Virus record (IMG/VR): IMGVR_UViG_3300014208_001418
Origin: a virus
DNA length: 54,277 bases
Strand: one strand, 5' to 3'
The position numbers were made by a program, and so were the translations under genes. Within the stretch, counting starts at the first letter, position 1. Each line of letters begins with the position of its first letter. The notes under the pieces were generated by a model. It was not told the origin of the DNA and ran no database searches. It saw only the letters and a program-made list of their open reading frames with translations. Positions 3,936-20,100 of this stretch are shown one piece after another.

Positions 3936-5125
3936 ACAAACTATTAACCCTATTAATACTATTAATCCTAATACCCCTATCACTATCTCCAGCCTCAGCC
4001 GAAGACACCTACAACGCTAAAATTCAAATCGAAATATCCCAAGTCAATAACGGAGTAACTTCTTGGTCTGCTCCAATAACCTTCGATCTTAATAAGACTG
4101 ACTCGAAATCCATCTATGGTATATCAGTAAACTATGCTGATATCGGAAACTCCAATTCCTTAATCCTTCTTCGTATCGCAGGAGGTTCCACATCAGACGT
4201 AGCGATGGCAAAGAATCAGCAAGCCTGCATAAAAGGGACCTGTGTAATGAATATCTCTCTACCCATAAACGTTGGAGATGTTCGTATAACATTGATGGAT
4301 ATAATAAAATCCTCTGCCTACTCATCCACTACAACAACCTCTGATAACATAGTAGAACTATACGTTCTCTGTTCCTCAGGCGAAAGACTCATCCTAGATA
4401 GAGACAGTCCCAATAATTATAACCCAACTCTCTGTGTCTCAAAAACAGGATGGTCTACGACCTCATCCAAAAACCTAATCATGTATATGAAACGTAACGT
4501 TATTACACCAATATCCTTAAATGTCGTTACAAATGGTGGATACAAAGAAGAAATAGTAGATGTCAACACTCGAAAATATACTATTACCTCCAACGAAGTC
4601 TACACCTTCAATGTCAAAGCCACTACCCAAGATATATGGGGAGGAAACATCGAAAAGCTCAATACCTATACCTTAACAGTAGCAGGTCTTGGTTCCACGT
4701 CTTCAGTACCCTCAACTCCCTCAACCTCTCCTTCAACTCCAACAAAGTCCTACAGCGTCTTTACAGGAGAACGTCAAGAGATTACTCTTCAGCCTGGATC
4801 ATTCGATGAAGATCCCTCTTTCACAGCATCCCAATTAAGCTCAACTCCCGATAAGTCAATATGGGAACTCTCATTCTTCGAATCAGGGATAACATCAACA
4901 ACATACAACCCCAAAACTGGAACCCCTTTTTCCATCGAATTCAGAGTAAGTGATCGTCCCACTCCAAAAGTCACTGAAGCTGCTCAAACTCCTCCACTAA
5001 CCTCTTACTCAGATACAATCCTATACATAATCATTGTACTCCTGATAATAGCAGCAGCAATATATTATCTCAAAGTCAAAAAATCCCCCTCCAGAGAACG
5101 CAAAATAACAACCAGAGAACCTTAA
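3932..5125 (+). CDS. Type I membrane surface protein, unknown function
   Basis: Signal peptide, PST linker, C-terminal TM plus basic tail. Confidence 0.8.
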   Translation: MNKLLTLLILLILIPLSLSPASAEDTYNAKIQIEISQVNNGVTSWSAPITFDLNKTDSKSIYGISVNYADIGNSNSLILLRIAGGSTSDVAMAKNQQACIKGTCVMNISLPINVGDVRITLMDIIKSSAYSSTTTTSDNIVELYVLCSSGERLILDRDSPNNYNPTLCVSKTGWSTTSSKNLIMYMKRNVITPISLNVVTNGGYKEEIVDVNTRKYTITSNEVYTFNVKATTQDIWGGNIEKLNTYTLTVAGLGSTSSVPSTPSTSPSTPTKSYSVFTGERQEITLQPGSFDEDPSFTASQLSSTPDKSIWELSFFESGITSTTYNPKTGTPFSIEFRVSDRPTPKVTEAAQTPPLTSYSDTILYIIIVLLIIAAAIYYLKVKKSPSRERKITTREP

Positions 5126-5137
5126 AAGAGCCCTTTC

Positions 5138-6337
5138 ATGACCACAATAAACAACGACATCTATTCAGGTATCAACAAAGTCTACTTCCTGACAGCCGAA
5201 GCTGAACCCGTAGATGCAGGCGTTTTCGACATGGACTACGGAGTCGACAAAAACAAATACAGTTCGGGTCAATTTGATCCCTCTGTAGACTTTTTTGATG
5301 ATACAATCTATGAAGGTAGACCATTCTTGAAAGTCTGTTTCATGCATCACGACTTATCCTCCATAGGCCTAAAAATAGGTCCTGGTCACATACATGAACG
5401 CTATTTTATCTCTACAGAACCCAACATCCCTATAACTGACATCTTCCGTCAAACCTCATATGGTAACATCCTAATCTACGGAACTCCCAAATCAATGAAC
5501 CCACCCACCCTCAATGACAATCAGGGACAAATAAAGCTTTGGGAAGTCGAACCTTACCTCTGTAAAGAAGATATCGAACTCCTCATAAACAACATCAATG
5601 CAGTATCCATATTCAAAAAAGAACTAGTAGACGCTAAAGTAAAAGCCCATAACTCCACAACCGAAGCCGTTCTTCAAATGGCTCGTGCAGTCTCCGCAGA
5701 ATCCTCCAATGTAGCTTTCGCAACCGTCATCAAAGTAATCCTTGCTCGTCTCCAACAATACCAGGGGAAGCTCATAGACATGAACGTAGAAGTAACCCAA
5801 CGCCTTCAGAAAGGAATGGAAACTATGGAAGGCCAACTCGATCTTGGAATCCCTTGGAATGATGTCAAAGCCTACGATGTCAAAAACACAATAGAAGACA
5901 TAGGATCCACTATTAATTCCATGACAGCTCTAAAGAACCTAAATCCAAATCCATCTGATAACGTCAAAGAATATGCCCTCAATATGGCTATTGAAATATG
6001 TGGCATCCCCTTCATAAAAGAACACCTGGGTTCTTACAACGAAAATACCCAGCCAAAACATATAAGTACATTCAGCGGGTTATCTACAGAGTACATGAAA
6101 AATCAGTTGGCCGCCAATATCCCTCCTCAAGAAATCGAAGCACAGATGACAAAGTTCGTTGAAAATCTCATGTCCAAATTCAACATAAACGGAAACGACA
6201 TGAAAAAAGCAGTAGAGGAAACTCATCAAGAAATGCTAACTCGAAACCCCAATCACCCTAACTATCAACAGATCCCCTATGCCAACCAATACAATAAACA
6301 ACTCTCTCAGCAATACCCTCAACAGTACTCCCAATGA
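5138..6337 (+). CDS. Hypothetical soluble protein with coiled-coil region and Q/Y-rich tail
   Basis: Long ORF with native codon usage. Confidence 0.75.
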   Translation: MTTINNDIYSGINKVYFLTAEAEPVDAGVFDMDYGVDKNKYSSGQFDPSVDFFDDTIYEGRPFLKVCFMHHDLSSIGLKIGPGHIHERYFISTEPNIPITDIFRQTSYGNILIYGTPKSMNPPTLNDNQGQIKLWEVEPYLCKEDIELLINNINAVSIFKKELVDAKVKAHNSTTEAVLQMARAVSAESSNVAFATVIKVILARLQQYQGKLIDMNVEVTQRLQKGMETMEGQLDLGIPWNDVKAYDVKNTIEDIGSTINSMTALKNLNPNPSDNVKEYALNMAIEICGIPFIKEHLGSYNENTQPKHISTFSGLSTEYMKNQLAANIPPQEIEAQMTKFVENLMSKFNINGNDMKKAVEETHQEMLTRNPNHPNYQQIPYANQYNKQLSQQYPQQYSQ

Positions 6338-7445
6338 CGTAATAATAGAAGTACTCCCCACAATCTCTTATAGTAGTTTATTCTCCGACTCCAACATTTT
6401 TTGGATATTCACAATTGGCATATTCTCCATCCTCTACCTAATCTTAGGTCGCTTTGATACAATCAAAAAAAGCACTCGTACCCTTTTCGCTCTCTCCATC
6501 CCCATCCTCATAGACCTGTTCATATCATTCGGAACCTTCACCTTTACCTTCCCATTCTCCTATTCTTTCACAGTCTCCCACGGAGTAATGTTCCTTAAAC
6601 TCCTAGATTACCTATTTTCCTATGGTCTATACAACGACTACTCCAGTTCTCTCATATCACCCTTCATTCAAAACGCCTCTCCTGTAGCCTCCTCAACCCT
6701 AACCTACCTACTCCTATTCCTAATAAATTCAATCGACACGATCCTAGAATTCATTTTTCTCTCTTATTTAACCTATACCCTTATAACAATCATCGAAAAC
6801 TCTACTCATAAACAAATTAACTATCAACTTCCAATCTCAATCGCAATAGGATTCATACCCGTATTCTTCTATATGATATTCGTTTCAAATCCCATAGAAG
6901 AGACAGCCAAAACAATCATAAACCTCAACGCAACTATAGACTTCTTTGCTTCTTCCTCCTTATTAACCATAGCATTAATGGCATTCTTTATAATCCTAAA
7001 TTTTGTAATCATCTCTCAAATAATCTTCATCGTAGTAGAACTCTGCTTTACCCTATACTCAAACCTAAATTACTCCAAAGCAGGAATAGAATGGCTTTAC
7101 TCCAAACACGGAATCGCATTATCCTTCTCAATCGTTTACTCCCTTATTTTCATGCTACACTCTGATTTCAAGTGGTACTCAGTATTTCCGATTTTACTCC
7201 TTTATTCCTATTTTAAAGACAAATCCTCAACCTACATCAAAAACTCTAAAACTAATCAATTTGAAACTCAACGCATTCAGGACATATCTCGTTCTACAAT
7301 AGAACAATATAATCCTTCTTCTCATCCTCATCCTTTTTCCGAACCCGATCAAATTCATGATGAATTCTCTCTTTATAACATAATCCTTTCCATCCTCGTA
7401 ATAATCATACTAGTCCTCTCCTATTATTGGTACACCCTGCAATGA
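6279..7445 (+). CDS. Polytopic membrane protein
   Basis: Many hydrophobic segments; start uncertain. Confidence 0.75.
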   Translation: MPTNTINNSLSNTLNSTPNDVIIEVLPTISYSSLFSDSNIFWIFTIGIFSILYLILGRFDTIKKSTRTLFALSIPILIDLFISFGTFTFTFPFSYSFTVSHGVMFLKLLDYLFSYGLYNDYSSSLISPFIQNASPVASSTLTYLLLFLINSIDTILEFIFLSYLTYTLITIIENSTHKQINYQLPISIAIGFIPVFFYMIFVSNPIEETAKTIINLNATIDFFASSSLLTIALMAFFIILNFVIISQIIFIVVELCFTLYSNLNYSKAGIEWLYSKHGIALSFSIVYSLIFMLHSDFKWYSVFPILLLYSYFKDKSSTYIKNSKTNQFETQRIQDISRSTIEQYNPSSHPHPFSEPDQIHDEFSLYNIILSILVIIILVLSYYWYTLQ

Positions 7446-7903
7446 AATCATGGGAACAATTAACAACTCAATCAGAAGTTCACGCTTTACTTTCCAAACC
7501 CGAACTCCTAGCCATCGCCGAAATCCTATATTCCGAAAACTCTCAAACCTTCGACTCTATCCTAAACGAATACTCTAAATCCTTCTCTTCCGAAATAACA
7601 CCTCGTCAACTCTACTATAACCTAAACATCCTAATCAAAAACAATATCATCTCAACAGAAGGAGAAAATGGAAAAAAAATCTATACCCTAAACAAAATAG
7701 AAAAAACAACTTACGCCTTCTCTTACACGACATCAATCCTTCTATTACTCTCTATTTTCAATCTTTTATTCTCATTCAGTACTCTCAATATCATCGTAGT
7801 TCTTCTCTTTACAATAGCTCTAGTATCAACTCACTTCGAATATTCTTATCGCTTTTTAAAAAACAACAAATTTCAGCTTCTCATAGAAAAACTCTCAAAA
7901 TAA
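7442..7903 (+). CDS. Winged-HTH protein with C-terminal TM helices
   Basis: ITPRQLYYNLNILIKNNII...KKIYTL; ATGA coupling at 7442. Confidence 0.7.
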   Translation: MKSWEQLTTQSEVHALLSKPELLAIAEILYSENSQTFDSILNEYSKSFSSEITPRQLYYNLNILIKNNIISTEGENGKKIYTLNKIEKTTYAFSYTTSILLLLSIFNLLFSFSTLNIIVVLLFTIALVSTHFEYSYRFLKNNKFQLLIEKLSK

Positions 7904-7942
7904 CGTTCACGCATAGCGTTATACCAACTTTTTGTAAAGCTA

Positions 7943-7990
7943 TACCAAAGCTTTGGTAGTCTAAAACTGAAAGTAAGCTTAATATATACG
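7943..7990 (+). promoter_or_regulatory. 16-bp palindrome plus TATA promoter of the 8074 gene
   Basis: TACCAAAGCTTTGGTA (7943-7958) upstream of GTAAGCTTAATATATA. Confidence 0.55.
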
Positions 7991-8073
7991 ATCACTATCT
8001 TATCGCTTAATCGATTGCGTTAAAAACAATCGAAATTAAAAAATCTTCTCTCTAAAAAGGAGTTAAAAAATAT

Positions 8074-9207
8074 ATGACGAACTCAAAACCCCAAATAAAA
8101 GGAGCGACTATAGTAATAATATTGCTCCTAGCCGTAGTAGGCGCACTAGCTTACAGTACACTGAAAGCACCCGTGCCAACCACAGGTGATATAAACCCAG
8201 CAGACAAATTCTCAGATCAGGTCGGTTCAGCCCCAGGTCAGCAGCCCACAAACATCATCACAACTAACAGTAAATTCGGTGATGACAATGTTGGACAGTT
8301 CCGTCCAGCCGTTTACAACGTAATGGACACGACTGCCACAACCTATACTGTAAACACGATCAGAGTTTACCAGATTGTAGATGGTATTGAAAACTTCTTC
8401 GGGACAGTTGCAACAGTAGTAACTGGTGTGGCACCACGTGGAACAGCATCTAATACTCTCGACATAACAGGATATGACGAAAACAACAATCTATACAAAT
8501 ACGTAGCATATGTCACAGCATCAGATGGCGTTAGAACCTCAGGTCGTTTCGAATTCACAGCCGCCGAAGATGTCGTCAAAACCTATGCAGTCCCTAACCA
8601 GTCAACCCTTATCTTCAAAGTCTACGATGAAGAAAATAGAGGATACCTCTTTACTTCAGGTGAAGAAGATGGAACTGTAGTCGCAGGAACAGCAAAAGCT
8701 ACAGGACAAACATTTGCAAACATGACAGCCAACACTACTGAAGCAGTCGGACAAGGCGGTTATTTCGATTACACAGTCTACTTCTCTCAGAACGGAACAG
8801 CCTCAACAGCAACCCAGTTCGAAGATCAAGTCCTTTTAATGGCAGTCGACGGTCAGGACCTCAGCGATTGGCAGACCCCAAGCATCTCTATCCCAGGCGC
8901 AGTCGTTACTCTCCTCTCACCAGGTCAGTATAACGATAAGATCAAGAACGATGGATATGACTGGATATATAGTATCACTAATGCTGATGGAACTCCACTT
9001 CATATCGACAGCACATGGACAAAAGCAAGAATCCAAGTCTATGCAAAATCAGGCGTAAACCCCTCTGACAATATCGGAATCGCTATGTACACAGGCGGTT
9101 ATTACACCCAGACAGTCGGTGACGGCATGAAGATGGATACTCACAAAGATGACGCATCTCAGACAGCAGTATTCACAGCTCAGACCTTAACCCTCAGCAT
9201 AGATTAA
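8074..9207 (+). CDS. N-terminally anchored or secreted beta-rich protein; candidate major structural/envelope protein
   Basis: Own promoter, AAGGAG RBS, hairpin terminator, biased codon usage; no family recognised. Confidence 0.6.
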   Translation: MTNSKPQIKGATIVIILLLAVVGALAYSTLKAPVPTTGDINPADKFSDQVGSAPGQQPTNIITTNSKFGDDNVGQFRPAVYNVMDTTATTYTVNTIRVYQIVDGIENFFGTVATVVTGVAPRGTASNTLDITGYDENNNLYKYVAYVTASDGVRTSGRFEFTAAEDVVKTYAVPNQSTLIFKVYDEENRGYLFTSGEEDGTVVAGTAKATGQTFANMTANTTEAVGQGGYFDYTVYFSQNGTASTATQFEDQVLLMAVDGQDLSDWQTPSISIPGAVVTLLSPGQYNDKIKNDGYDWIYSITNADGTPLHIDSTWTKARIQVYAKSGVNPSDNIGIAMYTGGYYTQTVGDGMKMDTHKDDASQTAVFTAQTLTLSID

Positions 9208-9222
9208 ATATAAACCACAACC

Positions 9223-9262
9223 TTAATAGTGACACAATCTCATTATTAACTTTTCTTTTTTT
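9223..9262 (+). terminator. Hairpin plus U-tract terminator
   Basis: TTAATAGTGA...TCATTATTAA followed by T-run. Confidence 0.6.
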
Positions 9263-9443
9263 CATAAATTTTCTCGTCATCTCTACAATTCCTATTCACT
9301 ACTTTTTCCAATATCAAGCCTATTCAATCCACTTTTCTCTTTCATTATCTTTTTCTAATCCAAAAATCTTCTCCAAAACTATATATACATCTATCACATT
9401 TCATACATTATAATCCATTAAAACTATATCAGGAAATACTTTC

Positions 9444-9731
9444 ATGTCAAAAAAAAGATCATCAATAAAGTCGATAGAAAAATCGATAGAAAACCTTTCT
9501 CAGGGAGAGAAATTAGTAGGAAGTGTCGCATGGGACATTCTCGACCTAACTCTATTCAGAATCCCAGGATTAGGCACTTTTACCGATATTCTCGCAACCT
9601 ATGTAGCATACAAATTTTGGGGTCCTATCGGTTTATTAGCCTCCGTAGAAGTCCTAGACGTGACAGATCAAGTCGATAGTTTCCTCCCAACAATGACACT
9701 CATTGCACTCTATTCAATAACAAAAAGGTGA
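9444..9731 (+). CDS. Small membrane protein, first gene of the fusexin operon
   Basis: D..RIPGLG..D and D.FLPT hydrophobic motifs; TATA ~9380. Confidence 0.7.
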   Translation: MSKKRSSIKSIEKSIENLSQGEKLVGSVAWDILDLTLFRIPGLGTFTDILATYVAYKFWGPIGLLASVEVLDVTDQVDSFLPTMTLIALYSITKR

Positions 9732-9737
9732 TATAAA

Positions 9738-10184
9738 ATGACTAAACAAAAAGAATCCAAAAAACGTCCACCAGAAATGTTATTATTCGTAGTAGGTATT
9801 ATAACATTATATCTTCTAGCAATAACAATTCCGATTCCGTTTTCCAACAACTCTGACGTTTACATAGATACAGTGGTCAAAAAATCCGTTGACATCATAA
9901 TTCCACAACCATTAACCTTCATTTCCGTAACTGCTAAAGTTCAGCAATCAACTTTCCTATCCGTCCCAAATCTCGGATGTATTGCAGGTTGTTCAGGTTT
10001 AATAACTATAACAGCAACAACTCCATCTTCTTCTGTAACAAAAACAGTTGATCCTATATACCTAACAACTACAACACCTGTTCAAATAATCCTTCGTAAG
10101 GTTCCTCCAACAGAAAAACTCGTAACTCTTACCCTTTACGAAGATGGAATCGTAACCAGTACTAAGGAGATCGTATTACCATGA
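9738..10184 (+). CDS. Membrane-anchored small beta protein, coupled to the fusexin gene
   Basis: GGTGA RBS, N-terminal TM, CxxxC, ATGA overlap. Confidence 0.75.
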   Translation: MTKQKESKKRPPEMLLFVVGIITLYLLAITIPIPFSNNSDVYIDTVVKKSVDIIIPQPLTFISVTAKVQQSTFLSVPNLGCIAGCSGLITITATTPSSSVTKTVDPIYLTTTTPVQIILRKVPPTEKLVTLTLYEDGIVTSTKEIVLP

Positions 10185-11893
10185 ACCCAATAAAACCCAT
10201 ATTTCTATCAATACTCATAATCGCTATCTTAATTCCCTCCTCTGTCGCCTCCACTACAGCAGGATCAGGATTTACTGTAATGTCAATATCCCCATCTAAA
10301 ATAATTTCCAACGATGAAGACTTAAAAACTGCCAATTTCATCGTAACAGTCGTAGCAAACGGAAATTCTCAATCTATCATCGGAGAACTCCTCACCGCCA
10401 ATGACATCAATGCTAAACTCTCCGAATCAGGCTCCTCAGTTCGAGTTTCCTCCCCCTTTAAAATTGAAATGGGTTCAGTCAAAGAAACCCTAACTTACCC
10501 CATCCGTAACACAGGCGCAATTCGTAAATACGAATATGCATATTCATCTGAAGTTAATTTTGTTTCGGAAGCAACATGTCTATCAGGCTATTCATATTGT
10601 TATACAGTCGAGGCAGGTTCCACATGGTGGGGAAAAACATACAGAAGTCTCAATATTCGCCAAGCAAACAGCGCCGTCTCCTCTTCCCTCGGAGAACTCG
10701 ATAATCCAAACATTAATTGGCAGGGCGATATAGTTCTAACAGCAGGACTAACTCGTGTATCAAAAACAATAGGTTCAATCGAATCCCTTGGAGCAGCAGA
10801 TTTCTATAACAGTAACGAGTGGATAGCTCAAGCTACATGGACAGGTTCTTTACTCACAGGGCAAGCAACCCCCAATCCTTCTCTCTATAAAGCAACCTTT
10901 ACTCCCGCCTTTAATCAATGGAGAATCTCCTCAAATTCCTACTATAATGACTATGCATCCTCCCTATCTGCAAAACAAGCATACTTCCCCTCAATGTTAA
11001 GCCAATATACTAAACAAGTGTGTCTTGATTCATACGGTTGTCCATCAGAAACTCCCCTAACAAACGCAATCAGCAATCATAATAGCATTGTAGACATCCT
11101 CTTATCTCAAAACACTAAAGTAACATACACCTCCTCTACAGGAGAAACTCTAGCCCAATCAACATCAGGAACTTCCTACTCAGGTAACGTAATCGAGACA
11201 ACCAATCGTCGTATCTCCAATCCTGTAATCGTGTTCAAAGTCAAAGCATTATCCTTATCTCCCTACATTCCCGTCGGAAAACCACGCATCGAATCAATAA
11301 CAACACCCGAATTCTCTAGCGGTGACAACAATGGAGTAGCAACAGTTCAATTCAAAAATATCGGTACTGAATCAGCAACATTCTCAGCAACATTCTTTGA
11401 TCCCTCAGGAACTTTCCACCCCTCCTCTAATCAAGAATCCTCAAAAACTACATGCCCTGCCCTTTCCCAATGCATCATAAACGTCTTTATCTCCAGTGAC
11501 TCCCCTACCAATGATCGTATCAGTAAAACTGCTACAATGACAGTCTATGACATAAACAAACCTTCCAATTCTGATACAAAAACCTTCGACATAATAATGT
11601 CACCTCCTAAAACCTGTATCCCTAGTTCCACTCGCACCTCAGGAAAACTCATCTATACCTGTAACGCCGACGGTTCAGGGGAAACAGTAATAGAATGCAC
11701 AGGAACAATCTCCCTTCAAAACAGCAAATACATTTGCATAGGTGGTTCAGTAACTCCCAAACCCGGAACAACACCAGTACCGAAAACAATATTCGCAACC
11801 CTATCTGACTTCTGGAGTTCACCCCAGCTAATACTAACTGTTCTAGTCCTTCTAATACTATCGTCTCTAATCTACATCAAATACAAAAAATAA
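10181..11893 (+). CDS. fsx1: Archaeal fusexin (Fsx1/FsxA; HAP2/GCS1 and class II viral fusogen superfamily)
   Basis: Signal peptide; ordered motifs LDNP..LTAG, WTGSLLTG..P, QWRIS..YNDY, PVGKPRI, VQFKNIG..ATFS, 4-Cys domain IV (CIP...IYTCNADG...EC...YIC), C-terminal TM; collinear with Fsx1 as I recall it. Confidence 0.85.
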   Translation: MNPIKPIFLSILIIAILIPSSVASTTAGSGFTVMSISPSKIISNDEDLKTANFIVTVVANGNSQSIIGELLTANDINAKLSESGSSVRVSSPFKIEMGSVKETLTYPIRNTGAIRKYEYAYSSEVNFVSEATCLSGYSYCYTVEAGSTWWGKTYRSLNIRQANSAVSSSLGELDNPNINWQGDIVLTAGLTRVSKTIGSIESLGAADFYNSNEWIAQATWTGSLLTGQATPNPSLYKATFTPAFNQWRISSNSYYNDYASSLSAKQAYFPSMLSQYTKQVCLDSYGCPSETPLTNAISNHNSIVDILLSQNTKVTYTSSTGETLAQSTSGTSYSGNVIETTNRRISNPVIVFKVKALSLSPYIPVGKPRIESITTPEFSSGDNNGVATVQFKNIGTESATFSATFFDPSGTFHPSSNQESSKTTCPALSQCIINVFISSDSPTNDRISKTATMTVYDINKPSNSDTKTFDIIMSPPKTCIPSSTRTSGKLIYTCNADGSGETVIECTGTISLQNSKYICIGGSVTPKPGTTPVPKTIFATLSDFWSSPQLILTVLVLLILSSLIYIKYKK

Positions 11894-12028
11894 CAACCAA
11901 AACCCTAAATACTAATCCAAACAAAACATCATAAACACAGAGGTTCTCAAAACAATGACTAAAAAACCAAACAAACCAAATGCAAAACACATAGCTCCCC
12001 TCGCTCATAGCAATCACGGTGATTTCAA

Positions 12029-13318
12029 ATGAATAAAATAATTAAAAAAATATTTGTAGCACTATCTGTTTTGTTATTCTTATTAATAAATGCTAGTGCC
12101 TTTAGTATATCAGACGCAAAAACTAAAGAACTAATTTCAAGTGAATATGGGACTATTGGTAATATTCTTGGTATTGGTGATAGCACTTATAAAGTAGTTT
12201 ATGACTCTGACACTACCGGTATAATTACCAAGTCATCATCTTTATTCAAACCCGCATCAGTGATTGCCTCAACAATAACAGTAATTGTATCTGTAAAACC
12301 AGCAGGCTCAGGCGTAGTAAAAGTATATGACTATTCCACTATGACGTTATTAGGTACTGTTACATCAACAGGAAGTTTTACCTTTTCCTCAACAGGTTCA
12401 ATAGGAATTGTTCCAATTGCAAACCCAGGATATACTCTTGAAGGTCTATGCGATTATACTGGTTGTTTGAGTGGTGTTTATTGGGGTCCTGTTGATCAAA
12501 TATCTATATGGCAGGTTACAGCAAATTTTAAATCCAATTCTGTAACACCTACTCCTCAACCTGGAGGAATTTGGAGTGTAGATGTAACAGAAGTAAATGA
12601 TGCAGTACAAATAGGTGCATGTGTAGGTTCTTCTGGTGGTTATTATAAATTAAAATCAACAACAAATACAGTATTAAGAAGTAATTATCTTGAATCTAAT
12701 GCATGTAGGTCGAGTAGTGAATCGAAATCTTATTTGTATTCTCTTGAACATGGAAATTGGATCGCTTATGTAACAGACCAAAGTGGAGTAACAAAGACAT
12801 TTAAATCATTTAGTGTAAATCCGACTATTCCCATAACTCCTCAACCCACCAGCACCTACATTCCAATCCCCACTTCTACAGCTCAACCTGGCTCCTATAA
12901 AGTCAACCTTCAATCTAATCCTTCAAACGCCCAAGCATTCGTCAATAACGTCTTTATCGGAAACACACCCGTAGATATTGGATTCACCTCAGGAGAAACT
13001 AAAACTATAACCTACATAAAATCAGGCTATACAACAAAATCCTTCCCAGTTTCCTATAACGAAGTTCAACACAGCGAAACCCTATCTCTATCAGGAACCC
13101 CACAAGGAACAGCAACTCCAACAGGACAACCCACAACACAACCCACAATAAGAACTACTCCTCCCCCATGTCCAACAGGATTAATATGGGATGCAACCAA
13201 TAACAAATGTGTAGCTCCTCCTGAAACATCAGATGATACCTACATCTATGCTGGCATAATCCTCCTTCTTATAGGTGGAGGAGTCTACATAACAAAGTTT
13301 AGAAAACCTAAAAAATAA
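12029..13318 (+). CDS. Mosaic surface adhesin-like protein with PEGA domain, Cys-rich module and TM anchor
   Basis: SNPSNAQAFVNNVFIGNTP..IKSGY (PEGA); signal peptide; TM plus KFRKPKK. Confidence 0.8.
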   Translation: MNKIIKKIFVALSVLLFLLINASAFSISDAKTKELISSEYGTIGNILGIGDSTYKVVYDSDTTGIITKSSSLFKPASVIASTITVIVSVKPAGSGVVKVYDYSTMTLLGTVTSTGSFTFSSTGSIGIVPIANPGYTLEGLCDYTGCLSGVYWGPVDQISIWQVTANFKSNSVTPTPQPGGIWSVDVTEVNDAVQIGACVGSSGGYYKLKSTTNTVLRSNYLESNACRSSSESKSYLYSLEHGNWIAYVTDQSGVTKTFKSFSVNPTIPITPQPTSTYIPIPTSTAQPGSYKVNLQSNPSNAQAFVNNVFIGNTPVDIGFTSGETKTITYIKSGYTTKSFPVSYNEVQHSETLSLSGTPQGTATPTGQPTTQPTIRTTPPPCPTGLIWDATNNKCVAPPETSDDTYIYAGIILLLIGGGVYITKFRKPKK

Positions 13319-13337
13319 CCCCCCATCCCACACAGCT

Positions 13338-14273
13338 ATGAAAACCCAAAAAGTAAGCAAAATCCATAAAATAATAATAGCTTTCCTATCTATTATTATT
13401 TTATCTCTTCTTTTATTCACAACCAACATCTCATCCCTCCTAACCGCTTCCCTAGTTCAATCAGGAACACACGTATACGTAACAGCAACCTATAATGGAA
13501 GATGCGGTAGTGGAACCTCCAATCAAATATCCTTCTACAAAGACAACATAGCGCCTAAATACGGTACTGTTCAAGTCCCATGTTCTGCACCCAGTCCCCA
13601 ACTCTATCTCCAAAACTATGCCTTAACCTATGCAAATCCCTCCATTTATGATACTGTATACCTAAACAATATCATCTATCAGCCTCCTATTTACAATCCT
13701 GATTACCCCACCTCCCCCTTCCTAGAAGACATCTCTCTCATCAACGCTCCCAACATTGATGTCACCATAAACAAGCCTCTTGCAGTCCTACTCACCTTTA
13801 ATTATCCTACTCAAGACACAAATTACAAAGACTTAAACATGACAATAAGCTGGTATAAGTCCTCTCTCCTCGATTCCCTCATGAATCCAATAAAAGATTC
13901 ATCCTTTAAACAAGTCCCCTCATCCCCATCTCCCATATATATCAACTACGAATTCATCCCCACATCTGAAACAGTTTATTTCATTACAGGAACCGTTGTT
14001 ACCCAACAATACACCTTCACAGATTCTTGGTATCTCACATCTGAATCCGTAACTTCCAGAGATGTCAAACAAATAACCTCCTCTCGCCCAATCCCAATAA
14101 CTCCAACCCCAACCCCTACCCCTACCCCCACTCAAACTTATCAACCCACCCCCACCCCCACTCCGACTCAAACTCCCGATCCTAAAACTAATACAGATAA
14201 TTACCCGCTATACATACTGATAATCGCAATCGGAAGCATATCTTTATACATACTAAAATCAAAGAGAAAATAA
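13338..14273 (+). CDS. Membrane protein with PT-repeat stalk and C-terminal anchor
   Basis: N-terminal TM, (PT)n, TM plus KSKRK. Confidence 0.8.
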   Translation: MKTQKVSKIHKIIIAFLSIIILSLLLFTTNISSLLTASLVQSGTHVYVTATYNGRCGSGTSNQISFYKDNIAPKYGTVQVPCSAPSPQLYLQNYALTYANPSIYDTVYLNNIIYQPPIYNPDYPTSPFLEDISLINAPNIDVTINKPLAVLLTFNYPTQDTNYKDLNMTISWYKSSLLDSLMNPIKDSSFKQVPSSPSPIYINYEFIPTSETVYFITGTVVTQQYTFTDSWYLTSESVTSRDVKQITSSRPIPITPTPTPTPTPTQTYQPTPTPTPTQTPDPKTNTDNYPLYILIIAIGSISLYILKSKRK

Positions 14274-14430
14274 ACATGCCACGACTCAAAATAGAAGAAA
14301 CAAAATCATCGTTTATGTGTGATTGAAAGAAAAGTTAATCTTGTTCAGAGAAATAACTGTAAAATTCAATCACACGCAAAACTATATATTGTTTGTCGTG
14401 TATATAGTTTTCTGTTCAGAGGAAAACTGT

Positions 14431-15483
14431 ATGAGTAAAAATGATAAACGTAATTTTAAAATGTCTGATGAACAGAGAAACTATTTATCAGAAATTAGAA
14501 TTGGTACAAAACAATCCGACGAAACTAAAAAGAAAATTTCTAACGCTACTAAAGGGGAGAAAAATCCATTTTTTGGTAAAAAACATTCTGCCGAAACAAG
14601 ATTAAAAATATCTAATAAAGCAAAAAGTAGAATAGTATCAATAGAAACTAGAGCTAAAATGTCTAAAAGTAGGAAAGGTAGAAAACTTGGACCGTTTTCA
14701 GATGAACATAAGAGACGCATTTCAGAAAGCAAAACGGGAAAACATTTATCAGATGAATGTAAAAACAAAATCTCGTTGGCGACAAAGGGTGAAAATAATC
14801 CTTTTTACGGTAAACATCATGGCGATGAAGCGAAGAAAAAAATTTCTGATGCGAATAAAAATAAAAGACTGTCTGATGAACATAAAACAAAAATATCAAC
14901 AAAATTGAAAGGTGTAAAACTTAAACCGCGCTCTGACGAATGGAAGAAAAATATTAGTAAAAGCAAAAAAGGAAGAAAACTATCAGAAGAACATAAAAGA
15001 AAAATATCAGAAGGAAACAAAGGTAAAAAAATATCTGAAGAAACTAGAAAAAAGATGTCTGAGCATCAGATAGGAGAGAAAAATCATATGTTTGGAAGAA
15101 GGGGTAAGGATAGTCCATTATTTGAACGTGTATTTTCAGATGAGACTATAAGAAAAATGTCAGATGCAAAGGCAGGAAATAAAGCTCCAACATGGATAGA
15201 TGGTAGATCATTTCTACCATATTGTCATAAATTTAATAGGCGAATAAAAAAATCAATACGTGATCGTGATAATTATACATGTCAGCTATGTGGATGTATA
15301 GAAAATGGCAGAAAACACCATGTTCATCACATTCATTACGATAAAGAAAACTGTAATCCAGACTTAATAACATTATGTAGCAGTTGTAATTCTAAAGTTA
15401 ATTTTAATAGAGATTATTACGAAAAACTGTTTATGAACAAACTCAATGATAGATGTTTATTATTTTGGAAAACAAACATATAA
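14431..15483 (+). mobile_element. Free-standing HNH homing endonuclease with NUMOD3 repeats
   Basis: Repeated HS.E.K.KIS..KG; RDNYTCQLC..HVHHIHY..N..LITLCSSCN; composition shift. ATG 14431 (GAGG RBS) preferred over TTG 14323. Confidence 0.9.
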
Positions 15484-15532
15484 AAACGCAATGCGCAGTC
15501 TTATATAGCATAAGATTGTTAGATTATACTAT

Positions 15533-16327
15533 ATGAAAATAAAAGTAGAAGATACAAAAAGTTTAACGGGAATTATACTTCTAACAGGAATTTCGACTGT
15601 AATTTTCGGCATCTTCACCAAAGACCTTAACCTACTTTGGTTCTCCCTACCCATAATCTTCTCTCTCATAATCGCAGTCTCCCGCTCCCGCAAGGACATA
15701 GATGATGCAGTTGCCTCAATTGGCATAACCTCTTCCAATATCCGCACTTCAATTCCTCTCGGCGTATCTGCGGGAATCCTTGTCTACATAGTCGGATCCA
15801 TGCTATTATCCTTCACAGATAAAAATACTGCTTCAATCGTTCCCACTTTCGCAATCGCTTCCTTAACTCCCGCTAACACCTTAGTAATTCCTGCTTCACT
15901 ATTCCTAATAATAAACGTTTTCATTCAATGGCTCGTAGTCGCTCCCTCCGAAGAGCTTGGCTTCCGTTTCCTAGCCCCCTACGCTATTTATTCTTTCACA
16001 AAATCAGTACCAGTTGCATTAATTCTCGGAACCTTTGCATGGATATTTACCCATATCCCCACATTCTTAATTCAGGGAGCCTCTTCAGGCATGTATATAG
16101 TTCTATTCATCTTAGGCATCGTAGCTATAGCCTTAATCTATTTCACAGGTGATATAGTCTCAGCATGGATCTCTCACGCTACTTTCAACACCCTTGTCAT
16201 AATTTCTACAGCAGTATTTAGCACCGTAACCTTAATAATACTCGTTTCCCTCTTAACATTCCTTTCAATATTCTACGTGACCTCAGGAGGCTCAAATGCC
16301 AAGAAACAAAGTCCATTCAACTTATAA
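15533..16327 (+). CDS. CPBP (Abi/CAAX type II) intramembrane protease
   Basis: EELGFR, FTH and SHATFN motifs; polytopic. Confidence 0.9.
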   Translation: MKIKVEDTKSLTGIILLTGISTVIFGIFTKDLNLLWFSLPIIFSLIIAVSRSRKDIDDAVASIGITSSNIRTSIPLGVSAGILVYIVGSMLLSFTDKNTASIVPTFAIASLTPANTLVIPASLFLIINVFIQWLVVAPSEELGFRFLAPYAIYSFTKSVPVALILGTFAWIFTHIPTFLIQGASSGMYIVLFILGIVAIALIYFTGDIVSAWISHATFNTLVIISTAVFSTVTLIILVSLLTFLSIFYVTSGGSNAKKQSPFNL

Positions 16328-16931
16328 AACAGATTCTTTATCTCATATCCTTCTTTCTCTAGCTATTTTAATATCCGTTTTTCTCGGATCTCAATCCTTT
16401 CTCTCCTCCTTCCCATCATCCATCTTAATCACTAACGACACTAAATTCACAACCACTTTCACCTCTATCAGTGCCAACCAAGTAACCTTCTCTGACTCAT
16501 CACTCTCCCAATCTATAACTCCTGATGACATTCTTCCCCTCAGGCAAGGCGGTTATATTCGCTTCAAAGCCAACCAAGTTCAAAATCCATCCATCCGCGA
16601 AGCCTTAAAATATTCCCGATACCAATTCAATCACATCCTCTTCTACGAGCAATCCCTAAATCCATGGTCATTTACAGAATCTGATTCAATGGTTTTATCG
16701 ACTAATATACTATCTCAAAGAGTCTCATTGTCGTTCAGTAAAAACCTCAATGCTCTCGAAGTCACTACTCCCACATCACATTACTATGTTTCGCTCCCAA
16801 TAAACTCCTTCGCTCTAGTTACGGATGATGGCAACGCTCTATTATACAAATTATATCGTATAGATGACTCTAATATCAGCATCACTCTTATTGGTCTGTA
16901 TCCATCAAATTCTGCAATCTATCAATCCTAA
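16296..16931 (+). CDS. Membrane-anchored hypothetical protein
   Basis: N-terminal TM. Confidence 0.7.
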   Translation: MPRNKVHSTYKTDSLSHILLSLAILISVFLGSQSFLSSFPSSILITNDTKFTTTFTSISANQVTFSDSSLSQSITPDDILPLRQGGYIRFKANQVQNPSIREALKYSRYQFNHILFYEQSLNPWSFTESDSMVLSTNILSQRVSLSFSKNLNALEVTTPTSHYYVSLPINSFALVTDDGNALLYKLYRIDDSNISITLIGLYPSNSAIYQS

Positions 16932-16956
16932 TAGAACCTTAATAGTTCTATTTTTT
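16930..16956 (+). terminator. Hairpin plus U-tract terminator
   Basis: AATAGAAC...GTTCTATT followed by T-run. Confidence 0.6.
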
Positions 16957-17166
16957 GTCATCATTTCCCCATATAAAATCATAAGACATATTTATATACT
17001 TTAGAATATCAATACATCTAAACATAAAAAGGAGTAATAACTATTATAAACATTTTCATCAATAAAATAACTAACTCAAATGAAAGCATATTCGAATTAC
17101 TTATTCCTGTAATTGGAATTATAATTATAATTATGAGTATGATACTAGGTATATGGAGTTAAAATC

Positions 17167-20100
17167 ATGAAATCAAAAGTTTTTTGTTTACTATCGGATA
17201 ACATAATGAATCCATTTTTGAGGGTACTTGTATCAGTTGTATTTTTGCTGCTCCTTGCTGGTGTGGCATCCGCAACAGTTCAGGTTGTGGCATCGAATAC
17301 GGTACGAGCAAGCAATGATACGAACACATCGGCAGAATATGGTGAGTGGAAATTACAGAAAGTTATATCATTGGAATCACTTGGAAATCTTACAGGGTCT
17401 TTCAATGGTACTTTTAAAGAAAAAGACGCAGGGTCACAATATAGCTTCATAATGAAAAAGAGTGGTGTTAATATATCTGGTACATCAGGGACAAGCACTA
17501 CAAATTATGAAGATACGCTTACAACCCGCACATTTACGTTTTCGACTACATTCAATGCAACTGACACCTTTGAATTATGGGCAAATCCATCTGATGCAGG
17601 GTACAAGATCGGGGATTTCAGGTTGATGTATGATTATGGGTATGATTTGCCGAGTGTGACGATTGGTGATGGTATGTGGGGTGCAAACGGAACGTATGAC
17701 AATACAGTTCAAAACGCTTCAGGTTATCTTACAGTAGCATCTAATTTTTCATCTCCGTATCCTACGGATTATACAACCATGTGGTTAGGATATGAGGGTG
17801 CAGGAACGACATGGAATGACTCTAATGTAACAACTGCAAAGACAGTGACATTCACAGGTTCGCCATCCTGGACTACTGACACATGGGGGAACACAATAAC
17901 CCTGAATGGAAACAATCAATATGGCTCTTACACTTCATCAAATCATTCTGATTTAATGACAATTGTTGGGTGGTTTAATTCTTCAGACTTAGATACCAAT
18001 TCACTTCCACGTATTCTTGATGAACCAGGCGGGTTAATATTTATAAGAAACGATACTAATTATAAAAACCAAATCCAAATTCATTTTAATAAGGCAACTA
18101 CCGCTGGAATATGGTTTAAGAATAATACCATATTCAAAAATACTACTTATAGATATGTATTAAGATATAATCAAAGTAGTACTGATGCTCCAGTATTAAC
18201 CTTAAATGGAGTGAACATTTCTCTTGATACAAACCAAGCTCCTGTTGGTGCAAAAGTGAGTAATGTTGGAACTGGATATATAGGTGATAGTTCTGCACAT
18301 ACAAGAGAATTTACAGGTAAAATTGGTCGTATTGGTTTTTATGATCGGTGGCTTACTGATGCAGAAAGCAAACTTGCCACGTATGGCGGGTTTCATACCA
18401 GGGGGAATTTTACAACATCTATAGTATCATTGGGGGATAATACACCGTTTACTAATTATTATTTTTTTGGAGACCCTACAAATAATCTCACTGTATTTAT
18501 AAATAATAGTGATGATGCTATTTCTTGGTCTGGAGAGTCTGTTTTATCAACAAATCCACCCAATCTAACTTATGGCGAGTTACCAGAATCAAATCAGACT
18601 AAATATATTCAGTTAAGATTTAGTCTCTCAAGTGATATATCTATTTCAAGTTATATAAATAAATTTATATTATACGGAACCACGAATGTTACCCCTTCAG
18701 TTCTATATTTTATCAGCCCGACTAAGGTAAATGCAAGCGAGAATTGGGGTGTGAACTCGACCCAAATATGGATACAGACCACAGAAACATTCAACGAGGC
18801 ACCAATATTGTACTGGCAGGATAAAAGAGGTTCGGAACTACGGGTTGTTACATATATAATGAATCAGAATAACAATACGACTTATAGTTACAACTTTACT
18901 AATTTGGACGATGGTGATTATTTTTATTATGTATCTGCGAACCTTAGTAGTTCAGGAAATGTTTTTACATCTACTTATTACGTATCCATAGATTGGGACT
19001 TGGATCAAACCGTTCAAGGTGTTTATTTATGGCAACAATCAGATGGGCGGTATGTATCTAATACTACTACATCATATCCCCCTAATACCTTTATCGAACC
19101 AGAGTGGAAAGGATGGAGTTCATTGTCTGGTAATCGTGGAAATGGCACTTTAATAAGAAGGTGTTGGAATTCTACAACTAATGATATATATGATAACAAT
19201 GGTGCATGTTCTGGTAGTGATAGTTCCATAAATCTTGCATATACCATTAATAACTGGCATCCATATCTTTATGAATTGAAACGATATGTAAATGCGTCTG
19301 GAACTGCCCATATTACAATAATAAATCGTGATCCTCCTGCGGGATATACTTTTGATAAATCTCTTGGCTATGCAATGCCAATGATGCCACATGTTCAGGA
19401 TATTAAGTATATAAATAACTCTGTTATAAAATTTGGAGTTGATTGTCGATATGGTGGTGCAGGTGTATATCTTGCATCGATGAGCAATTTGTCTAAGAAT
19501 ATTATTAATAATTATGATTCGGGTAGACAGATACAAAACTCTTATTATGATGACGGAAATGCAACTGAAGTATATAGTCCGACTAGTATTTGGTCAGAAC
19601 CTTGGGGCTGGAATCCTACACTTGCGGGAAATATATACACCCAACCTTCAAATGTTACTTCATGTGAAGTCGTGAATAATACAATTACTATAAGTGTTGA
19701 TAAACTTGTTCACTGGAATCCGAGTTATAATAACGGCCTCTATAGTGATTTAGGGGGAGAAGTAACTTATTCTTTTGATGGTGAGAACCCTGTATTAACC
19801 TCAAGATACCTATATACTCATAATGGAAATGTAACTCATTTAAATTGGGCACATGAAACACCGACTTTTTATGGTATAAAAGAATTGACTCATGCTTGGT
19901 TTAGAAATAGTACCACTTTGTTTGAAGAGACACCAATATCCCAGGGATATACAGTATATTATGAATCATCACAAATAGTTTATATTAGTATGCTTAATGA
20001 TTCTGATTGGGGCGTTGGGTTATGGAATAATAGACGTCCGCAAGTAGTTTTTTTTAATTTCTCTTTAAACTCGGACTCAGGAACTGCTTATGACGATGCA

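What the first reader, a model, noticed from the sequence alone, without database searches (positions are those of the whole stretch)
10181..11893. HAP2/GCS1-like fusexin (Fsx1 homolog) on a virus-like element
Seen: signal peptide, beta-rich ectodomain, 4-Cys membrane-proximal domain, Pro/Thr linker and one TM. Motifs are collinear with haloarchaeal Fsx1 as I recall it: LDNP..LTAG ~ IDNP..LQAG; WTGSLLTG ~ WNGNLDLG; FNQWRIS..YNDY ~ FENGWRIG..YEDY; PVGKPRI ~ PTGDPDI; FKNIG..TFS ~ VENVG..EFS; CIP..IYTCNADG ~ CNP..IYTCQDNG. Known: fusexins unite gamete HAP2, nematode EFF-1 and class II viral fusogens, and Fsx1 was described from integrated mobile elements of haloarchaea and from metagenomes. Inference: this element encodes a membrane fusogen in a methanogen/ANME-type host.
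Basis: partly seen in the sequence, partly recalled or inferred. Interest (0 to 1): 0.95.

Follow-up and report, generated by a model that had tools for sequence, protein, structure and literature searches.

The report
Archaeal Fsx1 fusogen on giant replicon
The gene is a genuine relative of the archaeal Fusexin1 / gamete HAP2 membrane-fusion proteins, and it sits not on the integrated conjugation-like elements described so far but on a 148-kb virus-like replicon with its own DNA-replication machinery, so it bears on whether such fusogens began in viruses or in cells.

Summary
ORF 10181-11893 (570 aa) has a signal peptide, a beta-rich ectodomain, a 4-Cys membrane-proximal domain, a Pro/Thr linker and one TM.

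Evidence for Fsx1 membership:
- A family profile matches crystallised Fusexin1 (PDB 7P4L) at E=1.9e-56. A profile of its own 32-member clade alone still gives E=1.3e-24. HAP2 domain III matches at about 4e-5 to 4e-6.
- The protein collection's stored Pfam tag for it is PF28161 "Fsx1".

It is therefore a new member of a known family, not a new kind.

What is new is detail and context:
- Its clade lacks the "invariant" domain III disulfide.
- The ectodomain is nearly uncharged.
- It has no N-glycosylation sequons.
- It sits in a conserved cassette: a small TM protein coupled by an ATGA overlap, then fsx1, then a PEGA membrane protein.
- The carrier is a 148-kb element with PolB, clamp loader, NrdD and 7-deazaguanine genes. 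No integrase, VirB4 or HerA was seen.

No capsid or packaging gene was recognised in the 99 kb read. About 49.5 kb remained unread, so "virus" is unproven. The host is not shown; one clade mate lies on a Methanoperedens-binned contig.

The parts
9379..9432 (+). Candidate archaeal promoter region of the 3-gene unit (two TATA-like A/T boxes, CTATATATAC and AACTATATCA, 12-65 nt before the ATG at 9444). A T-run at 9252-9262 follows the preceding gene.
   Evidence: Read directly from the sequence. Inference only; no transcript data.
9444..9731 (+). 95-aa small protein, first gene of the putative unit. Function unknown.
   Evidence: ORF list. No Pfam family.
9738..10184 (+). 148-aa companion protein: N-terminal TM helix (aa 12-33) plus a 7-strand beta-sandwich ectodomain. 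Its stop overlaps the fsx1 start (ATGA).
   Evidence: Overlap read. Homologues sit in the same position, with the same 4-nt overlap, in 4 other loci (L010, L003/C2, L012, L013). AF2 pLDDT 74.6. No significant PDB fold match.
10166..10170 (+). AGGAG Shine-Dalgarno-like motif 10 nt before the fsx1 ATG.
   Evidence: Sequence read. Inference.
10181..11893 (+). fsx1 gene: a 570-aa Fusexin1-family class II fusogen (type I membrane protein).
10181..10252 (+). Signal peptide (about aa 1-24).
   Evidence: Hydrophobic segment aa 7-25. Low pLDDT at 18-25. The cleavage site is inferred.
10577..10633 (+). Domain II tip: Cys133/Cys140 pair followed by the candidate fusion loop aa 142-151 (TVEAGSTWWG, two Trp at the hairpin tip).
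   Evidence: Occupies the profile positions of the 7P4L cd/fusion loop SVTSPV (paper residues S143-V148). Beta-hairpin 139-148/151-161 in the model. C133 is conserved in 118/120 members.
10934..11107 (+). Domain II helical hairpin (helices aa 252-277 and 291-309), counterpart of the Fsx1-specific helical insertion that forms the six-helix bundle in the trimer.
   Evidence: AF2 secondary structure. Feature described for Fsx1 in PMC9259645. The trimer was not modelled.
11267..11605 (+). Domain III (aa about 363-475), an Ig-like beta-sandwich. It lacks the family's usual Cys pair (here S409 and A451) and has its own Cys425/Cys431.
11606..11761 (+). Domain IV (aa about 476-527), the Fsx1-specific extra globular domain with four conserved Cys (479, 494, 506, 519).
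   Evidence: The profile alignment to 7P4L runs to chain residue 492. Cys conservation. Strands 484-526. Domain IV described.
11762..11893 (+). Pro/Thr linker (aa 528-547), TM helix (aa 548-566), short basic tail KYKK and the stop codon.
12029..13318 (+). 429-aa PEGA-domain type I membrane protein, a recurrent downstream neighbour of fsx1 in this clade.
   Evidence: Pfam PEGA. PEGA proteins lie just downstream of fsx1 in L010, C2, L014 and L015.
298..23988 (+). Co-oriented module of secreted and membrane proteins around fsx1. 14 of 18 genes have a signal or TM segment. It includes a LamG protein, a CPBP/CAAX protease and a 1970-aa surface protein.
28417..53778 (+). Replication and nucleotide module of the same element: NrdD with intein, QueD/PTPS, Sak4-like ATPase, NADAR, HhH protein, RFC-type clamp loader, PD-(D/E)XK nuclease, GNAT, PolB with intein.

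Best explanation
ORF 10181-11893 encodes a Fusexin1 (Fsx1)-family class II membrane fusogen.

Shown: it is a type I membrane protein with domains I-III of the fusexin fold, the Fsx1-specific domain IV and a domain II helical hairpin. It is homologous to crystallised Fsx1 and, more remotely, to HAP2.

Inferred mechanism, by analogy with Fsx1, HAP2 and viral class II proteins: the protein is anchored by its C-terminal TM in a membrane made by the element's host. It inserts the Trp-Trp loop at the tip of domain II (aa 142-151) into the opposing membrane. It trimerises around the domain II helices. Domains III and IV then fold back, pulling the two bilayers together until they merge.

It is probably co-transcribed and translationally coupled with a small TM beta-sandwich protein upstream, and it is followed by a PEGA membrane protein. 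These are candidate regulator and adhesion partners (inferred from conserved gene order only).

Its purpose is the horizontal spread of the 148-kb self-replicating element that carries it. My odds for the mode of spread are: about 45% fusion of the carrier or infected cell with a neighbouring cell, about 30% fusion of a membrane-bound particle (virion or vesicle) with a new cell, and the rest other.
For: Sequence homology:
- 330 representative relatives at E<=1e-3.
- The 120-sequence profile hits 7P4L Fusexin1 at E=1.9e-56 over 460 positions, and HAP2 from Arabidopsis, T. cruzi and Chlamydomonas at 4.5e-6 to 1.6e-3 in domain III.
- The clade-only profile hits 7P4L at 1.3e-24 and HAP2 at 4.4e-5.
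- Stored Pfam label PF28161 Fsx1.

Fold:
- AF2 pLDDT 88.3, pTM 0.81.
- Foldseek: 7P4L 9.7e-25, HAP2 1.8e-17, SFV E1 2.5e-12, EFF-1 8e-11.
- ESM Atlas: the best cluster is plant HAP2.

Features:
- Trp-Trp loop at the homologous fusion-loop position.
- Four conserved domain IV Cys.
- Signal peptide plus TM.
- Complete absence of N-X-S/T sequons (0 vs 9 expected), while two neighbouring surface proteins are sequon-enriched. This fits a protein exposed outside an N-glycosylating cell and under special constraint.

Function of the family: the crystallised Fsx1 fuses mammalian cells, and this involves its fusion loop and domain IV (PMC9259645 abstract).

Context: a membrane-protein module next to a full replication module on a 148-kb contig. 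The companion-fsx1-PEGA order is conserved.
Against: - No experiment exists on this protein or its clade.
- Identity to the one tested Fsx1 is only about 16-18%.
- The domain III disulfide, called invariant in HAP2 and Fsx1, is absent.
- The trimer could not be modelled (size cap).
- The model is in the folded-back shape, and nothing is known about a pre-fusion state or a trigger.
- The mode of spread is not decided by any data here. No capsid, terminase or portal was found, but neither was an integrase, VirB4 or TraG, in the 99 kb read.
- A third of the element is unread.
Confidence: 0.72

Rival explanations
1. Entry fusogen of a membrane-containing archaeal dsDNA virus or vesicle-borne replicon. 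Fsx1 sits in the particle's lipid envelope (or internal membrane) together with the neighbouring membrane proteins, and merges it with the membrane of a new host cell to deliver the 148-kb genome.
For: - The element has a virus-like layout. A block of 18 co-oriented genes has 14 with signal or TM segments. It lies beside PolB, clamp loader, NrdD, inteins, homing endonucleases and a 7-deazaguanine pathway.
- The best viral matches of PolB and RFC are archaeal viruses.
- No head-tail genes were recognised in 99 kb (and stored Pfam).
- In viruses, class II fusogens are typically paired with an upstream companion, and a conserved coupled upstream gene exists here.
Against: - No nucleocapsid, matrix or packaging gene was identified.
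- No relative was found in IMG/VR by pattern scan, nor in deposited phage and archaeal virus genomes.
- Moi et al. state that no DNA virus or archaeal virus with a fusexin is known.
- 148 kb is very large for known enveloped or pleomorphic archaeal viruses (own knowledge).
- 49.5 kb are unread and could hold a head-tail module.
Confidence: 0.3
2. The element is a head-tailed archaeal virus, and fsx1 with its neighbours is an accessory (moron-like) cassette. It is expressed in the infected cell's membrane to fuse infected cells with neighbours (syncytium-like spread), or to remodel the cell surface.
For: - PolB and the clamp loader are closest (26-33% identity) to the haloarchaeal tailed viruses HCTV-5, HCTV-1 and HVTV-1.
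- Size, inteins, HNH/LAGLIDADG genes and the deazaguanine pathway are typical of large tailed viruses (own knowledge).
- The companion-fsx1-PEGA cassette occurs on otherwise unrelated elements, as mobile cargo would.
- The unread 49.5 kb is the right size for a head-tail module.
Against: No capsid, portal, terminase or tail family was detected by Pfam or PHROGs in two thirds of the element, including all large unknown proteins tested.
Confidence: 0.2
3. The protein keeps the fusexin fold but no longer fuses membranes. It would serve as a surface adhesin, a structural coat protein or an exclusion factor of the element.
For: - Loss of the domain III disulfide in the whole 32-member clade.
- Low identity to the only tested Fsx1.
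- The neighbours look like adhesins: LamG, PEGA and CarboxypepD_reg domains.
Against: - All four domains, the hydrophobic tip loop, the helical hairpin, the domain IV cysteines and the TM anchor are retained under purifying selection across a deep clade.
- Hydrophobic or aromatic residues persist at the loop in close relatives.
Confidence: 0.1

Closest known systems
Fusexin1 (Fsx1), archaeal fusexin; crystal structure PDB 7P4L (Moi et al. 2022, PMC9259645); Pfam PF28161
   Same: - Homologous along the whole ectodomain (profile E=1.9e-56; clade-only profile 1.3e-24).
- Domains I-III plus the extra 4-Cys domain IV.
- Helical insertion in domain II.
- Fusion loop at the same position.
- Signal peptide and C-terminal membrane anchor.
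- Carried by a mobile element.
   Different: - Only 16-18% identity.
- Ectodomain net charge -2 instead of -67, so not halophilic.
- One TM instead of three.
- Fusion loop four residues longer, with two Trp.
- The domain III betaC-betaF disulfide is absent, as in its whole 32-member clade.
- Two long helices are predicted where Fsx1 has a four-helix hairpin.
- The carrier is a 148-kb self-replicating element. It lacks the XerC/D, HerA, VirB4 and TraG genes that mark the published integrated elements, at least in the 99 kb read.
HAP2/GCS1 gamete fusogens (PDB 5OW3, 5OW4, 6DBS, 6E18, 5MF1; Pfam PF10699)
   Same: - Detectable sequence similarity in domain III (E=4.5e-6 to Arabidopsis HAP2).
- The best ESM Atlas cluster is plant HAP2 (TM 0.53).
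   Different: - No PF10699 match in the local Pfam scan.
- No domain IV in HAP2.
- Different domain II.
- HAP2 has the domain III disulfide and Cys-rich domain II.
- HAP2 is a eukaryotic cellular gene rather than mobile-element cargo.
Viral class II fusion proteins (alphavirus E1, bunyavirus Gc, flavivirus E) and C. elegans EFF-1
   Same: - Same three-domain architecture.
- A gene for a small membrane protein lies directly upstream, as the companion does in viral polyproteins (analogy only).
   Different: - No sequence similarity.
- Those viruses have RNA genomes and infect eukaryotes.
- Here the carrier is a large DNA replicon of an archaeal type.
- The companion is unrelated in fold to prM, E2 or Gn as far as tested.
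Haloarchaeal tailed viruses HCTV-1, HCTV-5 and HVTV-1 (about 102-104 kb)
   Same: Closest deposited viral relatives of the element's PolB and RFC-type clamp loader (26-33% identity).
   Different: They have no Fsx1 homologue by tblastn. No head-tail gene has been recognised in the present element so far.

Membership tests
Fsx1 (archaeal fusexin, PF28161) | Significant sequence-profile match to Fsx1 | tested here: met
   - A2 profile vs PDB: 7p4l_A E=1.9e-56, 195 bits, profile 66-525 vs chain 15-492.
- Clade-only A5 profile: E=1.3e-24.
- Stored Pfam tag PF28161 'Fsx1' for this very protein.
- Single-sequence phmmer found nothing, and the model is missing from the local Pfam copy.
Fsx1 (archaeal fusexin, PF28161) | Class II fusexin fold, domains I-III | tested here: met
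   - AF2 pLDDT 88.3.
- Foldseek top hits are the 7P4L chains at about 1e-24, then HAP2, E1, Gc and EFF-1.
Fsx1 (archaeal fusexin, PF28161) | Additional C-terminal globular domain IV with two disulfides | tested here: met
   - Cys479, 494, 506 and 519 are conserved in 105-119 of 120 members.
- Beta strands at 484-526.
- The HMM alignment to the 7P4L domain IV motifs runs up to chain residue 492.
- The disulfide pairing itself is inferred.
Fsx1 (archaeal fusexin, PF28161) | Helical hairpin in domain II that builds a six-helix bundle in the trimer | tested here: inconclusive
   Two long helices (252-277, 291-309) are predicted at the right place.
Fsx1 (archaeal fusexin, PF28161) | Protruding uncharged/hydrophobic fusion loop (domain II cd loop) | tested here: met
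   aa 142-151 (with W149 and W150) align to the 7P4L loop SVTSPV (paper S143-V148) by shared profile positions. They form a hairpin tip in the model. Membrane insertion is not testable here.
Fsx1 (archaeal fusexin, PF28161) | Invariant domain III betaC-betaF disulfide shared with HAP2 | tested here: not met
   - The two columns are Cys in 83-84 of 120 members but S409 and A451 here.
- All 32 members of this protein's clade (SH-like support 97) lack the pair.
- This protein has its own Cys425/Cys431 in domain III.
- The feature is thus not universal in the family. It marks a subfamily rather than excluding membership.
Fsx1 (archaeal fusexin, PF28161) | Signal peptide and C-terminal transmembrane anchor(s) | tested here: met
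   Hydrophobic segments at aa 7-25 and 548-566: one TM here versus three in the crystallised protein.
Fsx1 (archaeal fusexin, PF28161) | Fusogenic activity (cell-cell fusion when expressed) | not testable with these tools
   Needs an experiment. Shown only for the crystallised Fsx1 (PMC9259645).
Fsx1-carrying integrated mobile elements (IMEs) of Moi et al. | Integrated element with XerC/D recombinase, HerA, VirB4 and TraG/VirD4 genes | tested here: not met
   - None of these families appears in the window or in the stored Pfam lists of the 99 kb read.
- The contig is 148 kb, with its own PolB, RFC and NrdD.
- Caveat: 49.5 kb are unread.
- A clade mate (L014) does sit next to a tyrosine integrase.
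HAP2/GCS1 (PF10699) | Match to the HAP2-GCS1 Pfam domain | tested here: not met
   No PF10699 hit for this protein even at E<=10. There are only profile-level matches to HAP2 domain III. One relative (P0012) carries a weak stored PF10699 hit.
Virus (any realm) | Capsid protein and genome-packaging enzyme | tested here: inconclusive
   - No capsid, portal or terminase family by Pfam or PHROGs in the window or in record positions 46772-145693.
- Many proteins there remain unknown.
- About 49.5 kb of the contig could not be fetched because the look-ups were exhausted.

The most novel reading that the evidence does not exclude
The 148-kb element is a membrane-bearing archaeal dsDNA virus (or a vesicle-transmitted replicon) that uses Fsx1 as its entry fusogen. 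That would be the first class II fusexin found in a DNA virus or in any archaeal virus. It would supply the missing link for the 'virus-first' scenario, in which gamete HAP2 and Fsx1 descend from a viral envelope protein. The conserved, translationally coupled upstream TM protein would then be the counterpart of the prM, E2 or Gn companion.
Probability: 0.28. Interest if true: 0.9.

Novelty: new member of a known kind. Interest (0 to 1): 0.6.

Why it matters
Fusexins link virus entry, somatic cell fusion and gamete fusion. Whether they arose in viruses, archaea or eukaryotes is open; this is the 'virus or the egg' dilemma.

So far, archaeal Fsx1 has been tied to integrated, conjugation-like elements of haloarchaea and to unplaced metagenomic contigs. 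Moi et al. point out that no DNA or archaeal virus is known to carry one. Here an Fsx1 gene sits inside a membrane-protein module of a large, non-halophilic, self-replicating, virus-like replicon. Relatives lie on similar replicons and on an integrase-flanked island of a Methanoperedens-binned contig.

This gives a concrete system in which the question can be tested: does a fusexin mediate particle entry or cell-cell spread in archaea?

The work also defines a deep subfamily with four marks: no domain III disulfide, a companion gene, a PEGA neighbour and sequon avoidance. These could guide experiments on regulation of the fusogen.

Tried and rejected
- Direct phmmer of the protein against PDB: no hit.
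- Local Pfam: only a Big_1 hit at noise level. PF28161 is not in the local library.
- PHROGs: only a weak unknown family on aa 475-537.
- The 9-sequence profile A1 reached only HAP2, at E=0.44. Deeper alignments were needed.
- IMG/VR pattern scan with A1: 78 pattern matches, none a relative.
The single protein found nothing. A3 found only the 'Ratteibacteria'-binned contig.
- tblastn against deposited phage/archaeal virus genomes and against plasmids: no match.
- The search for homologous proteins with A2 and with the companion were limited by the word index and added nothing.
- Complex prediction of the Fsx1 ectodomain with the companion ectodomain: 'no answer', score 0.00. This is neither support nor evidence against binding.
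- Companion model against PDB: no match at E<=0.001.
- ESM Atlas look-up of the 377-aa membrane-anchored protein 8074-9207, a capsid candidate: poor model and no usable lead.
- Search for capsid and packaging genes: negative in 99 kb.
- A trimer model was not possible (size cap).
- No whole genome is held for the window, and taxon-wide genome searches need a genome handle.
- A Borg-like element was considered because of one-strand coding and low GC. It was not pursued: TRF reported seven rows, all short imperfect arrays, and the contig is 148 kb.
Full report
**The observation**

- It has an N-terminal hydrophobic segment (aa 7-25) and one C-terminal TM (aa 548-566) followed by a short basic tail.
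- A Pro/Thr-rich linker lies in front of the TM.
- Four cysteines in the membrane-proximal part (479, 494, 506, 519) are conserved in 105-119 of 120 relatives.
HMMER puts each pair on the same profile positions in this protein and in the 7P4L chain.

**Identity**

A single-sequence search of the PDB and the local Pfam copy gave nothing. The local Pfam lacks the Fsx1 model. However, the protein collection's stored annotation tags this very protein, and several relatives, with PF28161, which a later table names 'Fsx1'.

An exhaustive phmmer search found 330 representative relatives at E<=1e-3, of which 212 were at <=1e-10.

| Profile | 7P4L Fusexin1 | HAP2 |
|---|---|---|
| 120 sequences (A2) | E=1.9e-56 over 460 positions | Arabidopsis 4.5e-6, T. 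cruzi 1.3e-5, Chlamydomonas about 1.5e-3, all in domain III |
| 32 sequences, own clade only (A5) | E=1.3e-24 | Arabidopsis 4.4e-5 |

The second row shows that the link does not rest on bridging sequences.

**Fold**

The AlphaFold2 model built on the 120-row alignment is confident: pLDDT 88.3, pTM 0.81.

|---|---|---|
| 7P4L Fsx1 | about 1e-24 | 23.6 (rmsd 5.2 A, 396 residues, 18% identity) |
| HAP2 | 1.8e-17 (Arabidopsis) | 19.1-19.6 |
| Bunyavirus Gc, SFV E1 | SFV E1 2.5e-12 | 12-13 |
| EFF-1 | 8e-11 | 11.6 |

The best ESM Atlas cluster is plant HAP2. The model resembles post-fusion hairpins much better than pre-fusion forms: TM by target length is about 0.5-0.65 against about 0.25-0.3.

**Anatomy against the published Fsx1 description**

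Present:
- Domains I-III.
- The extra domain IV with its four Cys.
- A helical insertion in domain II (helices 252-277 and 291-309).
- A domain II tip loop at the position of the Fsx1 fusion loop. Here it is aa 142-151, four residues longer, and carries W149-W150.

Different:
- The ectodomain net charge is -2, not -67, so this is not a halophile's protein.
- There is one TM instead of three.
- The domain III betaC-betaF disulfide, called invariant in HAP2 and Fsx1, is missing (S409, A451). It is present in 83-84 of the 120 relatives.

On a FastTree of the 120 sequences the protein lies in a 32-member clade (local support 97) in which every member lacks that pair. In the remaining 88 rows, 83 have it. 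The tree is a quick one with many long branches, so only this main split is used.

**A side observation that fits surface exposure in an N-glycosylating host**
- The protein has no N-X-S/T sequon, against 9.0 expected from shuffles (0 of 2000 shuffles as low).
- The family as a whole has 182 observed against about 759 expected, and 55 of 120 members have none.
- In the same window the LamG protein (36 vs 20.5) and the 1970-aa surface protein (114 vs 48.3) are strongly enriched. Cytoplasmic replication proteins are neutral.

**Gene neighbourhood**

*Companion.* The fsx1 start overlaps the stop of a 148-aa gene (ATGA), and an AGGAG motif lies 10 nt upstream. That gene encodes an N-terminal TM helix and a 7-strand beta-sandwich. 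It has no significant PDB match. It recurs in the same position with the same 4-nt overlap in four other loci whose Fsx1 is 37-42% identical. It was not found upstream of the remoter homologues L014-L016.

*PEGA neighbour.* A PEGA-domain type I membrane protein follows fsx1 here and in L010, C2, L014 and L015, that is in all five longer loci of the disulfide-less clade. It does not follow fsx1 in L016, from the other group.

*Mobility of the cassette.* Beyond this cassette the carriers share little, so the cassette itself seems mobile. Two relatives (C2, L010) carry a second, very divergent Fsx1-like gene of about 650 aa just upstream. The window has only one.

*Binding.* The complex-prediction job on Fsx1 plus companion returned 'no answer'. 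Binding remains a hypothesis from gene order alone.

**The carrier**

The gene lies on ENA contig k141_1704922 of 148,445 bp. Earlier notes of this scan call the contig circular and from groundwater (not checked by me).

- In the window, 14 of 18 genes between 298 and 23988 have signal or TM segments. They include LamG, PEGA and CPBP/CAAX-protease proteins and a CarboxypepD_reg-rich 1970-aa protein.
- The right half encodes NrdD and PolB (both with LAGLIDADG inteins), an RFC-type clamp loader, a Sak4-like ATPase, a PD-(D/E)XK nuclease, NADAR and QueD.
- By walking the contig I read record positions 46772-145693 (98.9 kb). This added QueC, a radical-SAM protein, FolE, a TGT-like enzyme, an XPD-type helicase with intein, a second AAA+ protein, a GH16-CBM protein and several large unknown proteins.
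- No capsid, portal, terminase or tail family was seen by Pfam or PHROGs, and no integrase, HerA, VirB4 or TraG (same calls plus 61, 82).
- PolB and the clamp loader are closest, at 26-33% identity, to the haloarchaeal tailed viruses HCTV-5, HCTV-1 and HVTV-1.
- Fsx1 itself has no tblastn match in deposited phage/archaeal virus genomes or in plasmids, and none in IMG/VR by pattern scan.
- About 49.5 kb could not be fetched.

So 'virus-like' is a fair description, but virus status is unproven. A head-tail module could still lie in the unread third.

The context clearly differs from the integrated elements with XerC/D, HerA, VirB4 and TraG reported by Moi et al..

Relatives show both lifestyles. 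L015 is a similar replicon with RFC, NADAR, YqaJ, RNR, a methyltransferase and UvrD. L014 is an MCM- and integrase-bearing island on a contig binned as Methanoperedens.

**Host**

- The replication proteins are of the archaeal/eukaryotic type (PolB, RFC).
- The sequon pattern fits an N-glycosylating host, here read as archaeal (inference).
- ARAGORN and Rfam did not find the intron-bearing tRNA that other notes place near 54027-54101.
- The only pointer to a methanogen/ANME-type host is the Methanoperedens-binned clade mate. Moi et al. caution that fsx1 contigs are easily mis-binned. Indeed another clade mate sits in a 'Ratteibacteria' MAG.

**Mechanism**

Shown: family membership, fold and topology.

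Inferred from Fsx1, HAP2 and class II proteins: insertion of the Trp-Trp loop into the target membrane, trimerisation around the domain II helices, and fold-back of domains III/IV that drives bilayer merger.

The role is most likely spread of the element. My odds are:
- about 45% cell-cell fusion, either plasmid-like or by an infected cell;
- about 30% particle-to-cell fusion, by an enveloped virion or a vesicle;
- about 10% a non-fusogenic surface role;
- the rest other.

**Novelty**

The protein is a new member of the known Fsx1 family. It represents a deep, disulfide-less, non-halophilic subfamily with a conserved companion-fsx1-PEGA cassette.

The library of papers held no report of Fsx1 on a virus or on a Methanoperedens-associated element. 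This is absence in that library only.

The most novel reading still open is that this is the first DNA-virus or archaeal-virus class II fusogen.

Noticed in passing
window 10181-11893 versus 936-3542 and 17167-23079: Opposite N-X-S/T sequon biases. Fsx1 has 0 (9 expected) and the whole Fsx1 family has 182 vs about 759 expected, with 55 of 120 members at zero. The LamG protein (36 vs 20.5) and the 1970-aa surface protein (114 vs 48.3) are enriched. The PEGA neighbour is mildly depleted (1 vs 4.9). Cytoplasmic proteins are neutral.
   Followed up: partly
G001:C2:28601-30553 (-) and L010:6709-8646 (+): Two related elements carry a second, very divergent Fsx1-like gene (about 650 aa; family profile E=2e-29 in two stretches) just upstream of the companion-fsx1 pair. 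The two copies are 78% identical to each other. The window has no such paralogue.
   Followed up: partly
L014:10001-14538: A 33%-identical Fsx1 clade mate lies on a 67-kb contig binned as Methanoperedens. An MCM helicase and a RuvB-like ATPase precede it; a PEGA protein and a tyrosine integrase follow it. This is an integrated-island context, unlike the window's.
   Followed up: no
window 298-606 and 12029-13318: The 102-aa ORF at the window start ends with nearly the same Cys-x-Cys stem motif (CPTGLIW...KCVAPPETSDDTYIY) as the PEGA protein, but stops before any TM. It looks like a truncated duplicate of that protein's C-terminal stem.
   Followed up: no
window 14323-15483: A NUMOD3-repeat HNH-type homing endonuclease gene sits in the middle of the membrane-protein module. 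NrdD (28417-32046) and PolB (49897-53778) each carry a LAGLIDADG intein, and the downstream XPD-type helicase (L019:14949-18065) does too.
   Followed up: no
window 53800-54277 / L019:14300-15000: Other notes of this scan mention an intron-bearing tRNA near 54027-54101. ARAGORN (default) and Rfam (E<=0.01) report no tRNA in the window or in this intergenic stretch.
   Followed up: partly
window 32095-32544; L018:7696-8400 and 2692-3300; L020:11293-14471: QueD/PTPS, QueC, a radical-SAM protein, FolE and a TGT-like enzyme are scattered over the element. Together they look like a 7-deazaguanine DNA-modification pathway, as in some large viruses.
   Followed up: no
window 15533-16327: A CPBP/CAAX-type intramembrane protease lies within the module whose proteins (Fsx1 included) end in linker-TM-basic tail. 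Not examined here.
   Followed up: no
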